In this document: in pieces, positions 3,252-12,719 of the stretch | Layout: each line of letters opens with the position of its first letter | Position numbering within the stretch: the first letter of the stretch is position 1 | Source: Escherichia coli | GTDB taxonomy: Bacteria; Pseudomonadota; Gammaproteobacteria; Enterobacterales; Enterobacteriaceae | Reading direction: 5' to 3' (one strand) | Length of the DNA stretch: 64,000 nucleotides | NCBI RefSeq assembly: GCF_048403405.1 | Contig: NZ_CP183129.1 | The notes under the pieces: generated by a model | Seen by the model: the letters and a program-made list of their open reading frames with translations, nothing else | Databases searched by the model: none | What the model was told of the DNA's origin: nothing | Position numbers and translations under genes: made by a program

Positions 3252-3672
<421 letters not shown>

Positions 3673-4292
3673 ACCGCACTCATTGTGGGATACAGCGTAT
3701 CCGTCTTATCCGATCTAAACGGCAACACACCACACATTTCCCTGCCAAATTTGCGCCCCATATCTCACTATCCATTAATGGATTTGTGACAGAAACCATT
3801 GTCTTTTTTTATATTTGCTTAAATCTTTTTTTGCGTTACTTATGACTGGCGCTGGCATTTTCCGCTGTGCGTTTTAGCGTTCATGGTATTAATCGCTCAG
3901 ATATCCACCTTTTCCTCAGATTTTTTTCACTAAATGCATAAAACTTAATCACCAAATGTTGCTAAATATTAAGCTGATTGTTCTGGTCATGTTGGAGTAG
4001 CACAAATTTCTCTGCTGCAAATAGCGGTTTGAAGTTTTTTTAATCTTTGTTTGTGGATTCTCACCGTTGGTGTAAATCCCGGTTGGCTGTATTGACGTTT
4101 TCACATTCTGTTGACAGATTGTAGGTCACGAGGGGCATTTTATGGAGGATCCGCACTGTTACACTGATGTTAATTAGTACGGCATCCCCACCTCATAACG
4201 TTGACCCGACCGGGCAAAAAACAAAAAAGGTCAGGCGGCGACAACCCACTGCAAAGGGTTAAAACAACAAACATCACAATTGGAGCAGAATA

Positions 4293-5900
4293 ATGCGTAT
4301 TTCCTTGAAAAAGTCAGGGATGCTGAAGCTTGGTCTCAGCCTGGTGGCTATGACCGTCGCAGCAAGTGTTCAGGCTAAAACTCTGGTTTATTGCTCAGAA
4401 GGATCTCCGGAAGGGTTTAACCCGCAGTTGTTTACCTCCGGTACTACCTATGACGCCTCTTCCGTGCCGCTTTATAACCGCCTGGTTGAATTTAAAATCG
4501 GCACCACCGAAGTGATCCCGGGCCTCGCTGAAAAGTGGGAAGTCAGCGAAGACGGTAAAACCTATACCTTCCATCTGCGTAAAGGTGTGAAGTGGCACGA
4601 CAATAAAGAATTCAAACCGACGCGCGAACTGAACGCCGATGACGTGGTGTTCTCGTTCGATCGTCAGAAAAACGCGCAAAACCCGTACCATAAAGTTTCT
4701 GGCGGTAGCTACGAATACTTTGAAGGCATGGGCTTGCCGGAGCTGATCAGCGAAGTGAAAAAGGTGGACGACAACACCGTTCAGTTTGTGCTGACTCGAC
4801 CGGAAGCGCCGTTCCTCGCTGACCTGGCAATGGACTTCGCCTCTATTCTGTCAAAAGAATATGCTGACGCGATGATGAAAGCCGGTACACCGGAAAAACT
4901 GGACCTCAACCCAATCGGCACCGGTCCGTTCCAGTTACAGCAGTACCAAAAAGATTCCCGTATCCGCTACAAAGCGTTTGATGGCTACTGGGGCACCAAA
5001 CCGCAGATCGATACGCTGGTTTTCTCTATTACCCCTGATGCTTCCGTGCGTTACGCGAAATTGCAGAAGAATGAATGCCAGGTGATGCCGTACCCGAACC
5101 CGGCAGACATCGCTCGCATGAAGCAGGATAAATCCATCAACCTGATGGAAATGCCGGGGCTGAACGTCGGCTATCTTTCATATAACGTGCAGAAAAAACC
5201 ACTCGATGATGTGAAAGTTCGCCAGGCTCTGACCTACGCGGTGAACAAAGACGCGATCATCAAAGCGGTTTATCAGGGCGCGGGCGTGGCAGCGAAAAAC
5301 CTGATCCCGCCAACCATGTGGGGCTATAACGACGACGTTCAGGACTACACCTACGATCCCGAAAAAGCGAAAGCCTTGCTGAAAGAAGCGGGCCTGGAAA
5401 AAGGCTTCTCCATCGACCTGTGGGCAATGCCGGTACAACGTCCGTATAACCCGAACGCTCGCCGCATGGCGGAGATGATTCAGGCAGACTGGGCGAAAGT
5501 CGGCGTGCAGGCCAAAATTGTCACCTACGAATGGGGTGAGTACCTCAAGCGTGCGAAAGATGGCGAGCACCAGACGGTAATGATGGGCTGGACTGGCGAT
5601 AATGGGGATCCGGATAACTTCTTCGCCACCCTGTTCAGCTGCGCCGCCTCTGAACAAGGCTCCAACTACTCAAAATGGTGCTACAAACCGTTTGAAGATC
5701 TGATTCAACCGGCGCGTGCTACCGACGACCATAACAAACGCGTTGAACTGTACAAGCAAGCGCAGGTGGTGATGCACGATCAGGCTCCGGCACTGATCAT
5801 CGCTCACTCCACCGTGTTTGAACCGGTACGCAAAGAAGTTAAAGGCTATGTGGTTGATCCATTAGGCAAACATCACTTCGAAAACGTCTCTATCGAATAA
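4293..5900 (+). CDS. dppA: Dipeptide ABC transporter periplasmic binding protein DppA
   Basis: 535-aa ORF with signal peptide (MRISLKKSGMLKLGLSLVAMTVAASVQA), family 5 SBP; first gene of dppABCDF. Confidence 0.95.
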   Translation: MRISLKKSGMLKLGLSLVAMTVAASVQAKTLVYCSEGSPEGFNPQLFTSGTTYDASSVPLYNRLVEFKIGTTEVIPGLAEKWEVSEDGKTYTFHLRKGVKWHDNKEFKPTRELNADDVVFSFDRQKNAQNPYHKVSGGSYEYFEGMGLPELISEVKKVDDNTVQFVLTRPEAPFLADLAMDFASILSKEYADAMMKAGTPEKLDLNPIGTGPFQLQQYQKDSRIRYKAFDGYWGTKPQIDTLVFSITPDASVRYAKLQKNECQVMPYPNPADIARMKQDKSINLMEMPGLNVGYLSYNVQKKPLDDVKVRQALTYAVNKDAIIKAVYQGAGVAAKNLIPPTMWGYNDDVQDYTYDPEKAKALLKEAGLEKGFSIDLWAMPVQRPYNPNARRMAEMIQADWAKVGVQAKIVTYEWGEYLKRAKDGEHQTVMMGWTGDNGDPDNFFATLFSCAASEQGSNYSKWCYKPFEDLIQPARATDDHNKRVELYKQAQVVMHDQAPALIIAHSTVFEPVRKEVKGYVVDPLGKHHFENVSIE

Positions 5901-6050
5901 TTAAAAGCCATACCCGGTGGCGCTGTGCCTCTGCGTGCAGCGCCATCCGGCAGCAATACTTCATTCCCTGCCCGACCTGGGCGGGAATTGATTTGTGAGC
6001 AATACAGACACGCAGTTCCAGGCTGCGGGTCACTACAGAGAATCCGGGTT

Positions 6051-7070
6051 ATGTTGCAGTTTATTCTCCGACGTTTGGGACTCGTCATCCCCACGTTTAT
6101 CGGTATTACCCTTCTCACATTTGCCTTTGTCCACATGATCCCGGGCGATCCGGTGATGATCATGGCGGGCGAACGTGGGATCTCCCCAGAGCGTCACGCG
6201 CAGCTGCTGGCTGAACTCGGCTTAGATAAACCTATGTGGCAGCAGTATCTCCATTACATTTGGGGCGTAATGCACGGCGATTTAGGCATTTCGATGAAAA
6301 GCCGCATCCCGGTATGGGAAGAGTTCGTGCCGCGCTTTCAGGCCACGCTGGAACTTGGCGTCTGCGCGATGATTTTTGCTACGGCAGTCGGTATTCCGGT
6401 TGGTGTGCTGGCTGCGGTTAAACGCGGTTCCATTTTCGATCACACGGCGGTTGGCCTGGCGCTGACAGGTTATTCAATGCCTATCTTCTGGTGGGGCATG
6501 ATGCTGATCATGCTGGTTTCGGTGCACTGGAACCTGACGCCCGTCTCCGGTCGCGTGAGCGACATGGTGTTCCTCGATGATTCCAATCCGTTAACCGGTT
6601 TTATGCTGATCGACACCGCCATCTGGGGTGAAGACGGTAACTTTATCGATGCCGTCGCCCATATGATCTTGCCCGCCATTGTGCTGGGTACTATCCCGCT
6701 GGCGGTCATTGTGCGTATGACACGCTCCTCGATGCTGGAAGTGCTAGGTGAAGATTATATCCGCACCGCGCGCGCCAAAGGGCTGACCCGCATGCGGGTG
6801 ATTATCGTCCATGCGCTGCGTAACGCGATGCTGCCGGTAGTGACCGTTATCGGCCTCCAGGTGGGAACATTGCTGGCGGGGGCGATTCTGACCGAAACCA
6901 TCTTCTCGTGGCCCGGTCTGGGGCGCTGGTTGATTGACGCACTGCAACGCCGCGACTATCCGGTAGTGCAGGGCGGCGTATTGCTGGTGGCGACGATGAT
7001 TATCCTCGTCAACTTGCTGGTCGATCTGCTGTACGGCGTGGTGAACCCGCGTATTCGTCATAAGAAGTAA
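6051..7070 (+). CDS. dppB: Dipeptide ABC transporter permease DppB
   Basis: 339-aa ORF from ATG 6051 (MLQFILRRLGLV...); the longer upstream extension in the ORF track is not supported. Confidence 0.93.
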   Translation: MLQFILRRLGLVIPTFIGITLLTFAFVHMIPGDPVMIMAGERGISPERHAQLLAELGLDKPMWQQYLHYIWGVMHGDLGISMKSRIPVWEEFVPRFQATLELGVCAMIFATAVGIPVGVLAAVKRGSIFDHTAVGLALTGYSMPIFWWGMMLIMLVSVHWNLTPVSGRVSDMVFLDDSNPLTGFMLIDTAIWGEDGNFIDAVAHMILPAIVLGTIPLAVIVRMTRSSMLEVLGEDYIRTARAKGLTRMRVIIVHALRNAMLPVVTVIGLQVGTLLAGAILTETIFSWPGLGRWLIDALQRRDYPVVQGGVLLVATMIILVNLLVDLLYGVVNPRIRHKK

Positions 7071-7079
7071 GGGGACATC

Positions 7080-7982
7080 ATGTCACAGGTTACTGAAAAT
7101 AAAGTGATTAGCGCACCGGTGCCGATGACCCCGTTACAGGAGTTCTGGCACTATTTTAAACGCAACAAAGGCGCGGTCGTCGGGCTGGTTTACGTCGTCA
7201 TCGTGCTGTTTATCGCGATCTTTGCCAACTGGATTGCACCCTATAACCCGGCGGAACAGTTCCGCGATGCACTGCTCGCCCCGCCAGCCTGGCAGGAAGG
7301 CGGCAGCATGGCGCACTTGCTGGGCACCGATGACGTAGGCCGTGATGTGCTGTCGCGTCTGATGTACGGTGCGCGATTGTCACTGCTGGTTGGCTGTCTG
7401 GTAGTTGTGTTATCGCTGATTATGGGCGTTATTCTCGGCCTGATCGCCGGTTACTTCGGCGGCCTGGTCGATAACATCATCATGCGCGTGGTCGATATCA
7501 TGCTGGCGCTACCAAGTCTGCTGTTGGCACTGGTGCTGGTGGCGATTTTCGGCCCGTCGATTGGTAACGCCGCGCTGGCGCTGACCTTCGTTGCCTTGCC
7601 GCACTATGTGCGCTTAACACGCGCCGCCGTGCTGGTGGAGGTGAATCGCGATTACGTTACCGCGTCTCGCGTGGCAGGTGCCGGGGCGATGCGTCAGATG
7701 TTTATTAACATCTTCCCGAACTGCCTTGCGCCTCTGATTGTTCAGGCGTCGCTCGGTTTCTCTAACGCCATTCTCGATATGGCTGCTCTTGGTTTCCTCG
7801 GCATGGGGGCGCAGCCGCCAACGCCGGAGTGGGGCACCATGCTCTCCGACGTGTTGCAGTTCGCGCAAAGCGCCTGGTGGGTCGTGACCTTCCCGGGTCT
7901 GGCGATCCTGCTGACGGTGCTGGCATTTAACCTGATGGGTGACGGTCTGCGTGACGCGCTCGATCCCAAACTGAAGCAGTAA
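7080..7982 (+). CDS. dppC: Dipeptide ABC transporter permease DppC
   Basis: 300-aa membrane ORF, operon position. Confidence 0.93.
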
Positions 7983-7992
7983 GAGGTTCGAG

Positions 7993-8972
<980 letters not shown>

Positions 8973-8976
<4 letters not shown>

Positions 8977-9977
8977 GTACGCATGAGGCCACCTCGCAAC
9001 AACCGCTGTTGCAGGCTATCGACCTGAAAAAACATTATCCGGTGAAGAAAGGTATGTTCGCTCCGGAACGTCTGGTGAAGGCGCTGGATGGCGTTTCGTT
9101 TAACCTTGAACGTGGCAAAACGCTGGCGGTAGTAGGTGAATCCGGCTGCGGTAAATCTACCCTCGGTCGGTTGCTTACGATGATCGAAACGCCCACCGGC
9201 GGTGAGCTGTATTACCAGGGGCAGGATCTGCTCAAGCACGATCCGCAGGCGCAGAAGCTGCGTCGGCAGAAAATCCAGATCGTCTTCCAGAATCCCTATG
9301 GTTCGCTAAATCCGCGTAAAAAAGTTGGGCAAATTCTTGAAGAGCCGCTGCTTATTAATACCAGCTTAAGCAAAGAACAGCGTCGGGAAAAAGCCCTGTC
9401 GATGATGGCGAAAGTCGGCCTGAAAACCGAGCATTACGACCGCTATCCGCATATGTTCTCCGGCGGTCAGCGTCAGCGTATCGCCATTGCCCGTGGTCTG
9501 ATGCTCGACCCGGATGTGGTGATTGCCGATGAACCGGTTTCCGCGCTGGACGTTTCAGTGCGTGCGCAGGTGCTGAATCTGATGATGGATTTGCAGCAGG
9601 AGTTGGGGCTGTCTTATGTCTTTATCTCGCACGACCTGTCAGTGGTTGAGCACATTGCCGATGAAGTGATGGTGATGTACCTGGGCCGCTGCGTGGAGAA
9701 GGGAACGAAGGACCAAATCTTCAATAACCCGCGTCATCCGTACACTCAGGCGCTACTCTCCGCGACGCCGCGCCTGAACCCGGACGATCGCCGCGAGCGC
9801 ATCAAGCTCACCGGTGAACTGCCAAGCCCGCTCAATCCACCGCCGGGCTGCGCGTTTAACGCCCGCTGTCGTCGGCGCTTCGGCCCCTGCACCCAGTTGC
9901 AGCCGCAGCTAAAAGACTACGGCGGTCAACTGGTAGCTTGTTTTGCTGTTGATCAGGATGAAAATCCGCAGCGTTAA
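8973..9977 (+). CDS. dppF: Dipeptide ABC transporter ATP-binding protein DppF
   Basis: 334-aa ORF with Walker [14 protein letters not shown] overlap with dppD stop. Confidence 0.93.
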
Positions 9978-9983
9978 CTCACA

Positions 9984-10002
9984 AAACCGGGGCCGTGCGC
10001 TC
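9984..10002. terminator. Candidate bidirectional terminator between convergent dppF and yhjV
   Basis: Imperfect inverted repeat aaaccggggccgtgcgctccggttt in a 29-bp convergent gap. Confidence 0.4.
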
Positions 10003-10006
10003 CGGT

Positions 10007-11278
10007 TTACTCAATCAGCTTCAACAGTGGCGACAAGCATAGCAAAATGCCGTAAAGCAGAATCAGCCAGGCTTTAAATCCGCGAAGTTTTTCCAGTTGT
10101 GCGACTTTATAGATCAGGAAAAACGGAATGAGGCACGACACAATGCCATATAACGGGCTTCCCAACTGAAAGAACACCAGCACCGATACACGAAACGAAA
10201 CCCAAATCGTCAACGTAATGACGATAAAAGCGCAGATCGCCAGAGTCAGCACGCGTGAATTAATTTTCTTGGTATCAATAATTCGGCTTAACAGATTGAG
10301 AATAATGCCTTTAATGGCCTCGTGGAAACCGAGATAAATGCCAAAGAATGCGGTCAGTACGGCAAAGATATTCAGCACCGTAGAGGTGATATGAATGATA
10401 TGCCCAGGGATCACCTGCGCGGCCAGTGCCAGTGCCGAGATATTTTGTTCAAAGGCAGAAACGGCTTCTTCGTGGCTAATTGAGAAGGTAAACGAAAAGG
10501 CAAAAAACAGGATCACCGCAATGAGCGTGATATAACTAATTCGGTGGGTACGCAGCGCGAGCCGGGTTGCCAGTACTTTATCTGCTTCCCGTTTACGATA
10601 GGCAATATTCATTGGGTTAAGTACCTGAATAAATACTGCAGAAAAGAAGCAAAATGGAATGGTAAGCAGGACATCGCGGAAAAAGACGGAGGCTTGCGGG
10701 AAGGCGGTTATATTGGCGAAATTCCAGTGCGGGATCATCGCAAAACCGAACACGACAATAATCCCTACTTTGACCACCACCATTGGCCCGGAAATCTTAA
10801 ACAGTAATCGTTCACCACCAGACGCAATTGCCACCAGTACGGCGAAAATGGCGACTTTATAAAGTAGAGATTGTGAAAGATCGGCATCGGTTAAACCGAA
10901 GGTTTTCAGGTACGAGGCGCTGTCGAAAACCACGGAGAGAGAGTAGATAAAAATCCCGTGGATAATCATCAAAAAGTAGATAACCCCGAGGAAAATTCCC
11001 CAGTTCTTCCCCAGGTAATGACTGATAATATCGGTGTAGTCATTACAGGAATCGCTTTCAGAAAGGGTTTTTAAATAAATGTCCTGCACTACCCAGGTGG
11101 CAGGATAAGCAATGATCGCTGCGGTAATAAATACCCAAATTCCCTTCAAGCCAATTTGTACTGGCATCAGCACGGTTCCGGCACCAATCGCCATGCCTAT
11201 GCATAATAAAACCCAGCCGAAGTCGTAGCGTGTAAACGGCAATTTCTGATCGTGTTTCGGTAGTGTGTTGTGCTGCAT
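10007..11278 (-). CDS. yhjV: Amino acid / HAAAP-family transporter YhjV
   Basis: 423-aa polytopic membrane ORF from ATG at 11278 ([11 protein letters not shown]...). Confidence 0.88.
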
Positions 11279-11753
11279 AAAGTCCTGTCCAGAAAGAAGT
11301 CGGCCTCGCAAAAATGAATAAACCCAGTTTCTCTTGCGCAACAGGTGGAGAAGTCGAATACGCAGTATGTAAAAAATGAGGCAACAGATTCACTGGGGAG
11401 GTCGCGAGTAGGCGCAATTCTACAAAATTGCGCATTTCACTACCAGTCTGGAGTCAGCCCGGATATGAACTGCAACTATTGCAAATAAAGAAATTAAGCT
11501 GGAAGGCATCGCGCAATGAGGAAGATTGCCGGGTGCTGACGGTAAAAAGCAATCGTAGAATCAGCGGCAAGCCGGAAAGGTTCCGGTGAGGCGCAATGTT
11601 GCGGGGGCTTTATCCCTGGTGGCATTGGTTGCTGGAGAGAGAAAACCCCCGCACGTTGCAGGTATGCACCTGACAACATCACGGGGGCCATTCTTGAACC
11701 TACACAACTCAAGAATAGCCGCGAAACGTTGTCATTACAACAGAGGCGGCTAT

Positions 11754-11942: not shown

Positions 11943-12236
11943 CGTAAGAAAAATGCAACGGTTGCAAGCGGATAATATTCTGCGGAATGCGCAGCACAGA
12001 GTGAAGAAGTGACGGATTCCGGAACAGAAAAACAGTCGTAGAATCAGCGGCAAGCCGGAAGGGTTCCGGTGAGGCGCAATGTTGCGGGGGCTTAATCCCT
12101 GGTGGCATTGGTTGCTGGAGAGAGAAAACCCCCGCACGTTGCAGGTATGCACCTGACAACACCACGGGGGCCATTCTTGCATCCAAACAATACAAGAATA
12201 GCCGCGAAACGTTGTCATTACAACAGAGGCGGCTAT

Positions 12237-12344: not shown

Positions 12345-12719
12345 CGTGTCAGACGGGCGTCAGGCTGCCGTAATGGCAATTTGCGCCCGGACCAGGCCGC
12401 AGGGATAAAACTCTGCGGCCTTTTTCGTAAGAAAAATGCAACGGTTGCAAGCGGATAATATTCTGCGGAATGCGCAGCACAGAGTGAAGAAGTGATGGAT
12501 TCCGGAACAGAAAAACAGTCGTAGAATCAGCGGCAAGCCGGAAAGGTTCCGGTGAGGCGCAATGTTGCGGGGGCTTAATCCCTGGTGGCATTGGTTGCTG
12601 GAGAGAGAAAACCCCCGCACGTTGCAGGTATGCACCTGACAACACCACGGGGGCCATTCTTGCATCTAGACCATTCAAGAATAGCCGCGAAACGTTGTCA
12701 TTACAACAGAGGCGGCTAT

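What the first reader, a model, noticed from the sequence alone, without database searches (positions are those of the whole stretch)
5901..6050. Structured dppA-dppB intergenic region
The 150-nt gap between dppA and dppB contains a GC-rich hairpin (tggcgctgtgcctctgcgtgcagcgcca, about 5917-5945), unlike the tight or overlapping junctions of dppB-C-D-F. This is consistent with a partial terminator or mRNA-stabilising element giving higher expression of the binding protein than of the membrane components.
Basis: inference. Interest (0 to 1): 0.2.

Follow-up and report, generated by a model that had tools for sequence, protein, structure and literature searches.

The report
dppA-dppB spacer: hairpin plus RyhB site
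The hairpin after the E. coli dipeptide-binding-protein gene dppA is real and marks the main end of the dppA message, and the same spacer holds a conserved probable docking site for the iron-starvation RNA RyhB, which may let the cell shut off the iron-sulfur transporter genes without losing dppA.

Summary
The window is E. coli eptB-proK-dppABCDF, and the dppA-dppB gap is 5901-6050 (150 nt). The quoted hairpin (H1, core 5918-5945, full stem 5914-5950) folds at -27.3 kcal/mol, z = -5.

H1 is single-copy in E. coli. It aligns with the outer arms of a REP doublet that other genera carry at this spot, so it looks like a REP relic. Published K-12 Term-seq places the only dominant 3' end of this gap 2 nt after H1 (window 5952). 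H1 has no U-tract. A Rho-dependent region lies early in dppB. H1 therefore looks like an exonuclease barrier that stabilises dppA mRNA, not an intrinsic terminator.

- H2 (5961-5991), a weak terminator-like hairpin.
- UGUGAGCAAU (5994-6003), conserved across Enterobacterales, accessible, and perfectly complementary to the conserved RyhB core.
- H3 (6007-6031), a leader hairpin with strong covariation.

Published data list dppBCDF, not dppA, as RyhB-repressed, and DppD and DppF carry [4Fe-4S] clusters.

The best reading is iscRSUA-like differential decay of a polycistronic mRNA. This is a new member of a known kind. RyhB pairing is inferred, not demonstrated.

The parts
4293..5900 (+). dppA (periplasmic dipeptide-binding protein), the upstream cistron
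   Evidence: ORF list. RefSeq annotation of a 100% identical E. coli record.
5908..5913 (+). Empty insertion site (CCATAC). K-12-type alleles carry a 157-bp RIP/BIME (REP - IHF-site-like spacer - REP) here, flanked by an ATAC/CATAC direct repeat.
   Evidence: Alignment of the window with K-12 and with other strains. The long allele is present in 3249 of 5426 complete E. coli genomes.
5914..5950 (+).
   Evidence: Folds at -27.3 kcal/mol, z = -5.0. One copy per genome, in 5421 of 5426 E. coli genomes. Aligns to the outer arms of REP pairs (GGCCTAC...GTAGGCC) in Leclercia, Superficieibacter, RIT691 and Citrobacter.
5952..5952 (+). Position equivalent to the dominant RNA 3' end mapped in K-12 (3705889, minus strand)
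   Evidence: Adams 2021 Term-seq supplement. The file gives 50 nt + 3' end + 10 nt of sequence, and the K-12-to-window mapping was checked with a second 3' end.
5961..5991 (+). H2, a terminator-like hairpin with an interrupted U-rich tail (AAUUGAUUUG). Possibly a weak terminator or an Hfq-binding module.
   Evidence: Terminator scan, top hit. Fold -16.4 kcal/mol, z = -3.6. A hairpin of differing sequence ends 3-17 nt upstream of the conserved motif in about 14 of 16 Enterobacteriaceae. No 3' end is mapped here in K-12.
5994..6003 (+). UGUGAGCAAU, perfectly complementary to RyhB nt 41-50 (AUUGCUCACA); a putative RyhB pairing site within the conserved block 5991-6008
   Evidence: RyhB sequence from K-12. 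The Rfam RF00057 consensus shows this core in upper case, which marks well-conserved positions. TGAGC is invariant in 24 Enterobacterales gaps. Perfect complements of 7-12 nt occur at a similar distance from the dppB ATG in 28 of 33 gaps, against 7 nt or less with no fixed position in 40 non-Enterobacterales gaps. Opening energy is 3.4 kcal/mol. Duplex energy is -14.9 kcal/mol.
6007..6031 (+). H3, a conserved dppB-leader hairpin (GAC...GUC stem, loop containing CCAGG)
   Evidence: Covariance-model alignment of 24 distinct sequences: 90.6% of cells paired, 8 of 9 pairs with changes on both sides, covariation score 0.473 against 0.142 for shuffles (0 of 500 reach it) and 0.07-0.11 for slid controls.
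6034..6053 (+). Conserved dppB translation-initiation region (ACAGAGAAUCCGGGUU-AUG) with a weak Shine-Dalgarno sequence
   Evidence: The columns A..GAGA.U and ATG are invariant across 24 Enterobacterales.
6051..7070 (+). dppB, the first of the dppBCDF translocator genes (dppC 7080-7982, dppD 7993-8976, dppF 8973-9977)
   Evidence: ORF list and RefSeq annotation.
6081..6140 (+). C-rich, G-poor tract in early dppB (C/G 2.6-3.75); a rut-like region upstream of the published Rho termination region (about window 6174)
   Evidence: Composition count. Adams 2021 Supplementary file 2 lists 3705667(-) inside dppB with Rho score 2.06, p = 3.6e-5.

Best explanation
The gap is a composite post-transcriptional control region that uncouples dppA from dppBCDF. 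It works like the RyhB-controlled iscRSUA operon.

(1) H1 (5914-5950) is a very stable hairpin derived from a REP doublet. It acts as a 3'->5' exonuclease barrier. Transcripts that end downstream are trimmed back to its foot, leaving a stable monocistronic dppA mRNA that ends at about 5952. The downstream ends could come from Rho-dependent termination in poorly translated early dppB or from endonucleolytic cleavage in the gap.

(2) The accessible, conserved block UGUGAGCAAU (5994-6003) lies between H2 and H3. It is a pairing site for the core of the iron-starvation sRNA RyhB.

(3) With Hfq, RyhB binding lowers dppB translation and/or recruits RNase E. The dppBCDF part of the message is then lost, and H1 protects dppA. 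DppD and DppF each carry a [4Fe-4S] cluster, so this fits RyhB's iron-sparing role.

Shown (published data re-read here): the 3' end at H1, the Rho-dependent region in dppB, and the listing of dppBCDF as a candidate RyhB-repressed operon. Shown here: the structures, H3 covariation, conservation and accessibility of the complementary block, and the REP ancestry of H1. Inferred: that H1 causes the 3' end, that RyhB pairs directly at 5994-6003, and the order of events.
For: - H1 stability: -27.3 kcal/mol, z = -5.
- The only curated 3' end in the K-12 gap is 2 nt after H1, with 46,345 and 209,104 reads in two growth-condition tabs. None maps at the upstream RIP REPs or at H2.
- A Rho termination region lies inside early dppB, downstream of a C-rich tract.
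- RyhB nt 41-50 are exactly complementary to 5994-6003, within the conserved core of the Rfam RyhB family.
- The site is the most accessible stretch between the hairpins, with an opening energy of 3.4 kcal/mol against 10-18 inside the stems.
- Complements of 7-12 nt occur at similar positions in 28 of 33 Enterobacterales gaps. The complementarity extends on different sides in different lineages but always along RyhB: AUGUGAGCAAUG in Erwinia, UGAGCAAUGU in Pantoea, AAUGUGAGC in Rahnella. Forty non-Enterobacterales gaps show only 7 nt or less, with no fixed position.
- Beauchene et al. 2015 (PMC4676285) list dppBCDF, without dppA, among new candidate RyhB-repressed operons. [quoted passage not shown]
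- DppD and DppF each bind a [4Fe-4S] cluster (PMC12136057).
- In iron-restricted egg white, Salmonella dppB, dppD and dppF fall at the first time point while dppA does not yet (PMC5428311).
- H3 covariation shows the dppB leader is under RNA-level selection.
Against: - No experiment I could read shows direct RyhB-dppB pairing. The RIL-seq supplements that could show it are not held. An EPEC RIL-seq data set, with no dppB entries at all and one file truncated, shows only GcvB-dppA chimeras.
- A 10-nt complement to the RyhB core is not rare in itself: 4 sites occur in this 64-kb window against 3.3 expected. The case therefore rests on location, conservation and the expression data.
- The site is 48-57 nt upstream of the AUG, too far for simple ribosome-binding-site occlusion.
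- Five of 33 Enterobacterales gaps lack the motif.
- H1 is confined to Escherichia. Other genera have different palindromes at this spot, and at least two (Pluralibacter, Enterobacter sp. Bisph1) have nothing between the dppA stop and H2. Within E. coli H1 barely varies, so there is no covariation test for it.
- RyhB sequences of the other species were not retrieved. Their core was assumed from the Rfam consensus.
Confidence: 0.55

Rival explanations
1. H1 is a partial intrinsic (Rho-independent) terminator. RNA polymerase stops at the hairpin in a fraction of rounds, and that alone sets the DppA:DppBCDF ratio.
For: H1 is a strong GC-rich stem-loop, and an abundant RNA 3' end maps next to it.
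Against: No U-tract follows H1; the next bases are GCAGCAAUACUUC. The terminator scan does not pick H1; its top hit is H2. The 3' end is 2 nt from the stem. In the same data file, a canonical terminator (rdlD) ends 6 nt past its stem, within its U-tract. A Rho-dependent region lies downstream in dppB.
Confidence: 0.1
2. H1 is a neutral relic of mobile REP elements in an insertion hot spot. The 3' end there is an incidental decay intermediate with no effect on expression. Differential Dpp expression is set only by translation efficiency.
For: H1 aligns to the arms of REP doublets present in other genera. A separate 157-bp RIP/BIME comes and goes in the same gap within E. coli. H1 is absent outside Escherichia. 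The whole E. coli gap is 97-100% conserved, so H1's conservation is not specific to it.
Against: The 3' end at H1 is among the curated dominant 3' ends, with 46,345 and 209,104 reads in two growth-condition tabs. Most Enterobacterales gaps contain stable palindromes of some kind between dppA and the conserved leader. REP stem-loops are established stabilisers of upstream mRNA in the malEFG and hisJQMP operons (my own knowledge: Newbury et al. 1987; Stern et al. 1988).
Confidence: 0.2
3. The conserved block is not a RyhB site. Either it is the start of a short upstream ORF (GUG at 5995) whose translation is coupled to dppB, or it is a site for another factor such as another sRNA, Hfq alone or RNase E.
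For: A start codon is kept at this position in all 26 sequences examined: GUG in most, UUG in Pluralibacter and AUG in Pantoea stewartii. In six Enterobacteriaceae the ORF ends 14-15 nt before the dppB AUG (five at 13 codons, Mangrovibacter at 12). The G-rich 3' arm of H2 lies 8-11 nt upstream, like a Shine-Dalgarno sequence. A table in PMC3318445 lists dppB and dppF as OmrA targets.
Against: The ORF length ranges from 3 to 72 codons, and in two species it runs on in frame into dppB. No peptide is conserved beyond the motif itself. Substitutions in H3 are compensatory at the RNA level, not codon-like. The lineage-specific extensions of the motif follow the RyhB sequence. This rival is not exclusive: RyhB blocking a uORF start is how it controls fur through uof (my own knowledge: Vecerek et al. 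2007).
Confidence: 0.2
4. The conserved block and H3 belong to an internal promoter or operator that drives dppBCDF independently of dppA.
For: The sequence is strongly conserved just upstream of dppB. TGTGAGC resembles a LacI-type half-operator (my own recollection).
Against: No sigma-70-like promoter is found in the gap; the only hit in 3800-10400 is at 4471. The block has no dyad symmetry. Compensatory changes in H3 point to RNA-level, not DNA-level, selection.
Confidence: 0.05

Closest known systems
[quoted passage not shown] 2009, EMBO J 28:1551; the reference is seen, the details are from my own knowledge)
   Same: RyhB pairs downstream of the first cistron of an operon. The downstream Fe-S-related cistrons are lost, and the first cistron survives because a strong REP-like hairpin in the intercistronic gap blocks decay. 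The dpp gap has the same layout: a REP-derived H1 followed by a RyhB-complementary site, with Fe-S proteins (DppD, DppF) encoded downstream.
   Different: In isc the pairing site overlaps the iscS ribosome-binding site. Here it lies 48-57 nt upstream of the dppB AUG, between two hairpins. Pairing and regulation at dpp have not been demonstrated.
REP stem-loops as 3' stabilisers in binding-protein-first ABC operons (malE-malF, hisJ-hisQ; my own knowledge: Newbury et al. 1987, Stern et al. 1988)
   Same: A stable palindrome lies directly after the periplasmic binding-protein gene. The upstream mRNA accumulates with its 3' end at the hairpin, giving more binding protein than membrane components.
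   Different: H1 is not a canonical REP: it is single-copy and lacks the GTAG/CTAC end. It appears to be what remains of a REP pair after its centre was lost. In K-12 a full RIP/BIME sits upstream of H1 but is not where the 3' end maps.
Trimming of Rho-terminated transcripts back to stable stem-loops (Dar & Sorek 2018, as cited and discussed in PMC7815308)
   Same: The 3' end lies at the foot of a hairpin without a U-tract, and a Rho-dependent region lies downstream.
   Different: It has not been shown for this locus that the H1 end derives from the Rho event in dppB.
Intrinsic terminators / operon-internal attenuators
   Same: H2 (5961-5991) is a GC-rich stem with a U-rich tail. In Pectobacterium and Brenneria the equivalent hairpin has a clean U6 tract.
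   Different: In E. coli the U-tract is interrupted, and no 3' end is mapped at H2 in K-12.

Membership tests
REP / BIME elements | Imperfect palindrome of about 35-40 nt in an extragenic position, often after a gene inside an operon | tested here: met
   H1 spans 37 nt (5914-5950) with 15 pairs and one bulge, 14 nt after the dppA stop.
REP / BIME elements | Conserved GTAG/CTAC tetranucleotide at one end of the element | tested here: not met
   H1's flanks are CATAC and GCAGC. The GGCCTAC...GTAGGCC hallmark is present in the orthologous elements of Leclercia, RIT691 and Citrobacter but falls in the segment missing from E. coli.
REP / BIME elements | Many copies per genome | tested here: not met
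   The 49-nt H1 query finds a median of one place per genome in 5421 genomes. The K-12 RIP segment finds a median of 7 places per genome.
REP / BIME elements | Sequence homology to bona fide REPs | tested here: met
   H1's arms align with the outer halves of the two inverted REPs at the same site in four other genera. Invariant columns include GCGCTG on the left arm and CCGGC on the right arm.
Intrinsic (Rho-independent) terminator | GC-rich stem-loop followed immediately by a U-tract | tested here: not met
   H1 is followed by GCAGCAAUAC and is not reported by the terminator scan. H2 meets the scan's loose rule (5 T in 8), but its tract is interrupted.
Intrinsic (Rho-independent) terminator | RNA 3' end within the U-tract a few nt after the stem, independent of Rho | tested here: not met
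   The published 3' end is 2 nt after H1. None is mapped at H2. A Rho-dependent region lies in early dppB.
3' stem-loop mRNA stabiliser (exonuclease barrier) | An accumulating RNA species has its 3' end at the foot of a stable hairpin downstream of the protected cistron | tested here: met
   Published Term-seq, re-read here: the only curated 3' end of the gap, with 46,345 and 209,104 reads. H1 folds at -27.3 kcal/mol.
3' stem-loop mRNA stabiliser (exonuclease barrier) | Removing the hairpin shortens the half-life of the upstream mRNA and lowers its product | not testable with these tools
   This needs an H1 deletion, followed by rifampicin chase and Northern blot.
RyhB target | Complementarity to the conserved single-stranded core of RyhB, in an accessible part of the mRNA | tested here: met
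   Ten contiguous Watson-Crick pairs with RyhB nt 41-50. The core is in upper case (well conserved) in the RF00057 consensus. Opening energy is 3.4 kcal/mol. Duplex energy is -14.9 kcal/mol.
RyhB target | Conservation of the complementarity in species that have RyhB | tested here: met
   28 of 33 Enterobacterales gaps have a 7-12-nt complement at a similar distance from the ATG. None of 40 non-Enterobacterales gaps does. The RyhB genes of those species were not fetched.
RyhB target | RyhB-dependent change in mRNA or protein level | tested here: inconclusive
   The literature lists dppBCDF only as a candidate operon decreased by RyhB. The supplementary values were not available.
RyhB target | Direct pairing shown by compensatory mutations or by chimeric reads with Hfq | not testable with these tools
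   The RIL-seq supplements are not held. An EPEC data set, with no dppB entries and one file truncated, shows no RyhB-dpp chimera.
Any described Rfam family | Match to a curated covariance model | tested here: not met
   There is no hit in 3500-10500 at E <= 1 other than RtT. No hit in the gap reaches gathering score across the whole window.

The most novel reading that the evidence does not exclude
RyhB pairs directly with the conserved UGUGAGCAAU block in the dppA-dppB spacer, and by a similar logic at the oppB start. It selectively removes the mRNAs for the [4Fe-4S]-containing peptide-transporter ATPases and their permeases during iron starvation. The REP-derived H1 hairpin preserves dppA mRNA. 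This would extend iron sparing to ABC peptide importers and give a second, widely conserved example of sRNA-driven differential decay within an operon. It would link a 2015 transcriptomic candidate to the 2025 discovery of Fe-S clusters in DppD and DppF.
Probability: 0.5. Interest if true: 0.5.

Novelty: new member of a known kind. Interest (0 to 1): 0.35.

Why it matters
Taken alone, the hairpin is an ordinary example of a well-known device: a stem-loop after a binding-protein gene that stabilises the upstream message.

Read as a whole, the spacer gives a concrete and cheap hypothesis. It names a specific 10-nt site through which RyhB could uncouple dppBCDF from dppA. That would explain why transcriptomics flagged dppBCDF but not dppA as RyhB-repressed. 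It would also give a physiological reason, iron sparing, now that DppD and DppF are known to hold [4Fe-4S] clusters.

The analysis also documents an undescribed conserved RNA hairpin (H3) in the dppB leader across Enterobacterales. It shows that a REP doublet can decay into a single-copy, functional-looking hairpin.

Tried and rejected
- RNAduplex of full-length RyhB against the gap, and a sliding 30-nt hybrid-energy scan. Neither was discriminating, because GC-rich hairpin arms score as well as the seed, and about 1% of random windows reach -20 kcal/mol. I relied instead on contiguous complementarity, accessibility and conservation.
- RNAalifold on the MAFFT alignment of 24 leaders gave no structure, because bulges put the stems out of register. 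I replaced it with a covariance-model alignment.
- Per-sequence z-scores of the 63-nt leader against mononucleotide shuffles were unremarkable in Enterobacteriaceae. The evidence for H3 is covariation, not stability.
- I searched for an intramolecular partner of the motif (ATTGCTCACA on the + strand). Only chance-level matches were found.
- A conserved leader peptide starting at GUG5995 is rejected as a conserved protein: its length is 3-72 codons.
- An internal sigma-70 promoter is rejected: no hit in the gap.
- I looked for direct RyhB-dppB evidence in RIL-seq supplements. Three are not held, and one EPEC set is uninformative. TERMITe supplements have no dpp entries.
- Within-E. coli variation of H1 is too small for a covariation test. 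The variants seen are a C->U change giving a G-U pair, loop changes, and one A-C mismatch in E. albertii.

Full report
**What the window is.** The region is E. coli eptB - tRNA-Pro(CGG) - two RtT repeats - dppABCDF. A 550-nt query across the junction is 100% identical to strain TUM14771 and matches 5422 of 5426 complete E. coli genomes. dppA is 4293-5900 and dppB starts at 6051, so the gap is 5901-6050, 150 nt. The dppB-C, C-D and D-F junctions are 9 nt, 10 nt and a 4-nt overlap.

**The observation.** The quoted hairpin is at 5918-5945. With the outer CCGG/CCGG pairing it spans 5914-5950: 15 pairs, one bulge, a 6-nt loop. It folds at -27.3 kcal/mol against -16.0 +/- 2.3 for dinucleotide shuffles (z = -5.0, 0 of 200 as good). 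The gap holds two further hairpins. H2 is 5961-5991 (-16.4 kcal/mol, z = -3.6) and is the top hit of the terminator scan, with tail AATTGATTTG. H3 is 6007-6031 (-12.7 kcal/mol, z = -3.7).

**Allelic state.** K-12 has a 307-nt gap. The alignment shows the same sequence plus a 157-bp insertion right after GCCATAC (window 5913). The insertion consists of two inverted REPs around an AT-rich spacer, that is, a RIP/BIME, and is flanked by an ATAC/CATAC direct repeat. The long allele covers at least 80% of the query in 3249 of 5426 genomes, so the window carries the less common short allele. H1 lies outside the insertion and is present in both alleles.

**What H1 is.** H1 is single-copy: a median of one place per genome, in 5421 of 5426 genomes, and 4783 of those are at least 99% identical. 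It therefore fails two defining features of REPs, copy number and the GTAG/CTAC end. At the same position, Leclercia, Superficieibacter, strain RIT691 and, in part, Citrobacter carry a doublet of inverted REPs (…GGCCTAC…GTAGGCCGG…). H1's left and right arms align with the outer halves of that doublet, and about 27 nt of the centre are missing in Escherichia. H1 is best described as a REP-doublet relic whose two outer half-arms now pair with each other. The few variants within E. coli and E. albertii are a C->U change that keeps a G-U pair, loop changes and one A-C mismatch. This is too little variation for a covariation test.

**What H1 does: published evidence.** Supplementary file 1 of Adams et al. 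2021 (PMC7815308; Term-seq of MG1655 in LB at OD 0.4, LB at OD 2.0 and M63) lists a 3' end at 3705889(-), classed 'orphan'.
- It has 46,345 reads in one growth-condition tab and 209,104 in another.
- A search for all coordinates beginning 37057, 37058, 37059 or 37060 finds only this position, three times in the three-tab file.
- It is therefore the only curated 3' end in the whole K-12 gap. None maps at the RIP REPs or at H2.
- The printed sequence is 50 nt + 3' end + 10 nt. With dppB's A of ATG at 3705790 equal to window 6051, the end maps to window 5952, i.e. …GCGCCAUCCGGCA-3', 2 nt past the stem.
- The mapping was cross-checked with a second 3' end (3707800 = window 4198).

H1 has no U-tract. 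In the same file, a canonical terminator (rdlD) ends 6 nt past its stem, inside its U-run. Supplementary file 2 of that paper lists a Rho termination region inside early dppB (3705667, about window 6174; Rho score 2.06, p = 3.6e-5). It lies just downstream of a C-rich, G-poor tract at 6081-6140 (C/G 2.6-3.75). The authors note that such positions reflect processed ends, because Rho-terminated RNAs are trimmed by 3'->5' exonucleases.

The most economical reading is as follows. Transcripts that end downstream, by Rho in poorly translated dppB or by cleavage in the gap, are trimmed through the weaker H3 and H2 and stop at H1. That leaves a stable dppA mRNA.

**The conserved part of the gap.** I retrieved dppA-dppB junctions from 80 species with DppB as query and extracted the gaps. 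Enterobacterales gaps are 109-458 nt. Pseudomonas and most other non-Enterobacterales gaps are 60-90 nt. H1 is not conserved beyond Escherichia, but the 3' third of the gap is.
- A block (U)UGUGAGCAAU is conserved, with TGAGC invariant in 24 sequences.
- It is followed by a hairpin of variable sequence.
- Then comes an invariant A..GAGA.U…AUG initiation region.

A covariance model built on six sequences and searched over 33 loci gave an alignment of 24 distinct sequences. In it, H3 pairs in 90.6% of cells, and 8 of 9 pairs show changes on both sides. The covariation score is 0.473, against 0.142 +/- 0.024 for shuffles (0 of 500 reach it) and 0.07-0.11 for slid controls. The alignment is fitted to the model, which favours the structure, but the contrast is large.

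In about 14 of 16 Enterobacteriaceae, a hairpin of differing sequence (-7.7 to -23.3 kcal/mol) ends 3-17 nt before the block. In Pectobacterium and Brenneria it is a clean U6 terminator. No Rfam family matches the gap.

**The RyhB link.** The block UGUGAGCAAU (5994-6003) is the exact reverse complement of RyhB nt 41-50, AUUGCUCACA. I took the RyhB sequence from the K-12 record. That stretch lies in the upper-case (well-conserved) core of the Rfam RF00057 consensus.
- The site is in the most accessible part of the gap between H2 and H3. Its 10-nt opening energy is 3.4 kcal/mol, against 10-18 kcal/mol inside the hairpins.
- The duplex energy is -14.9 kcal/mol in E. coli. It is -17.8 to -19.9 kcal/mol for the 11-12-nt versions in Pectobacterium and Erwinia.
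- Across 33 Enterobacterales gaps, 28 have a 7-12-nt perfect complement to the RyhB core at a similar distance from the dppB ATG, mostly -54 to -71.
- Where the flanks differ, the complementarity slides along RyhB rather than being lost: AUGUGAGCAAUG in Erwinia endophytica, UGAGCAAUGU in Pantoea stewartii, AAUGUGAGC in Rahnella bruchi.
- Forty non-Enterobacterales gaps show only 7 nt or less, with no fixed position.

One caution applies. A 10-nt complement to the 36-nt core is not rare in itself. The 64-kb window has 4 such sites against 3.3 expected, one of them inside hdeA. The expectation for one 150-nt gap is 0.004, but the argument rests on location, conservation and independent expression data.

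**Independent expression and biochemical data.**
- Beauchene et al. 2015 (PMC4676285) list dppBCDF, without dppA, among new candidate operons whose RNA is decreased by RyhB. [quoted passage not shown] They mention oppBCDF in a related group. The supplementary numbers were not available.
- The 2025 cryo-EM study of E. coli DppABCDF shows a [4Fe-4S] cluster in each of DppD and DppF, required for assembly (PMC12136057). That fits RyhB's iron-sparing logic and explains why dppA should be spared.
- In Salmonella exposed to iron-restricted egg white, dppB, dppD and dppF are already at 0.37-0.44 at the first time point, when dppA is unchanged (PMC5428311). This is circumstantial.
- In K-12, the oppB start (GCAAUGU, spanning the AUG) is complementary to RyhB nt 48-54, and CUGGAAGC at +28 is complementary to nt 53-60.

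**Mechanism proposed.** The layout is a strong REP-like hairpin after cistron 1, then a RyhB site, then Fe-S-related cistrons. This matches RyhB-induced differential degradation of iscRSUA (Desnoyers et al. 2009; the reference is seen, the details are from my own knowledge). The dpp site is 48-57 nt upstream of the AUG, so direct occlusion of the ribosome-binding site is unlikely. Plausible routes are:
- RNase E recruitment;
- Hfq recruitment next to the H2/U-rich module;
- blocking of a standby or enhancer element;
- reduced translation that exposes the C-rich tract to Rho;
- blocking of the GUG5995 upstream ORF.

That upstream ORF keeps a start codon in all 26 sequences examined. However, its length is 3-72 codons and it has no conserved peptide. 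I therefore treat it as a minor variant of the model, not as a gene.

**Rivals considered.** The rivals are an intrinsic terminator at H1, a neutral REP relic, a non-RyhB function of the block, and an internal promoter. No sigma-70-like site lies in the gap. No intramolecular partner for the block was found.

**Verdict.** The finding is real. The hairpin itself is an ordinary member of a known class. The more interesting content of the interval is the conserved dppB leader (H3) and the probable RyhB site. These are not described in any paper I could search and are directly testable.

Noticed in passing
window 4198 (K-12 3707800, minus strand): Published Term-seq shows a very abundant RNA 3' end (804,330 and 3,491,085 reads) 95 nt upstream of the dppA ATG, inside the dppA 5' UTR (…CCCCACCUCAUAA). 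No obvious hairpin or U-tract precedes it. It could be a stable 5'-UTR fragment or a processing product.
   Followed up: partly
L084 2097-2134 (K-12 oppA-oppB junction): GCAAUGU spanning the oppB start codon is complementary to RyhB nt 48-54. CUGGAAGC at +28..+35 is complementary to RyhB nt 53-60. The literature mentions oppBCDF as possibly RyhB/Fur-regulated, a parallel to dpp.
   Followed up: partly
window 56854-56864: A second, 11-nt perfect complement to the RyhB core (TGTGAGCAATG) lies inside the signal-peptide codons of hdeA (ORF 56804-57136). This is at the chance level for a 64-kb window.
   Followed up: partly
window 5913/5914; L001 1292-1598: There is a presence/absence polymorphism of a 157-bp RIP/BIME (REP - spacer - REP) flanked by an ATAC/CATAC direct repeat. 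It is present in 3249 of 5426 complete E. coli genomes and in E. albertii, and absent in this window and in O157:H7.
   Followed up: yes
window 3363-3496 and 3529-3664: Two tandem RtT RNA repeats (Rfam RF00391) lie downstream of the tRNA-Pro(CGG) gene (3252-3328), between eptB and dppA.
   Followed up: no
window 11640-11705, 12123-12188, 12606-12671 (minus strand): Three copies of the rdlD antitoxin RNA (RF01813) are spaced about 480 bp apart, which implies a tandem ldr/rdl toxin-antitoxin array downstream of the dpp operon.
   Followed up: no
window 5995-6138: A GUG-initiated ORF overlaps the RyhB-complementary block and runs out of frame into dppB (47 codons here). The start codon is kept as GUG, UUG or AUG in all 26 sequences examined, but the length is 3-72 codons. 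In six Enterobacteriaceae it stops 14-15 nt before the dppB AUG.
   Followed up: partly
window 6021-6025 (H3 loop): The H3 loop keeps CCAGG, a Dcm CCWGG site at the DNA level, in nearly all Enterobacteriaceae, although the stem sequence varies. The reason is unknown.
   Followed up: no
window 5952-5959 and 5998-6005: AGCAAUAC occurs twice in the gap, once right at the mapped 3' end after H1 and once in the conserved block. RyhB likewise has two CAUUGCU repeats. The first copy is not conserved outside Escherichia.
   Followed up: partly
E. coli RefSeq records H8, H11, H43 and others (dppA-dppB gap): Some PGAP annotations place a 'hypothetical protein' inside the dppA-dppB gap. It is probably a spurious ORF over the REP/hairpin region.
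   Followed up: no
window 48571-48684 and 54462-54533 (minus strand): The GadY sRNA (RF00122) and the ES205 sRNA (RF02754) are present, so the far end of the window is the gad/hde acid-fitness island.
   Followed up: no
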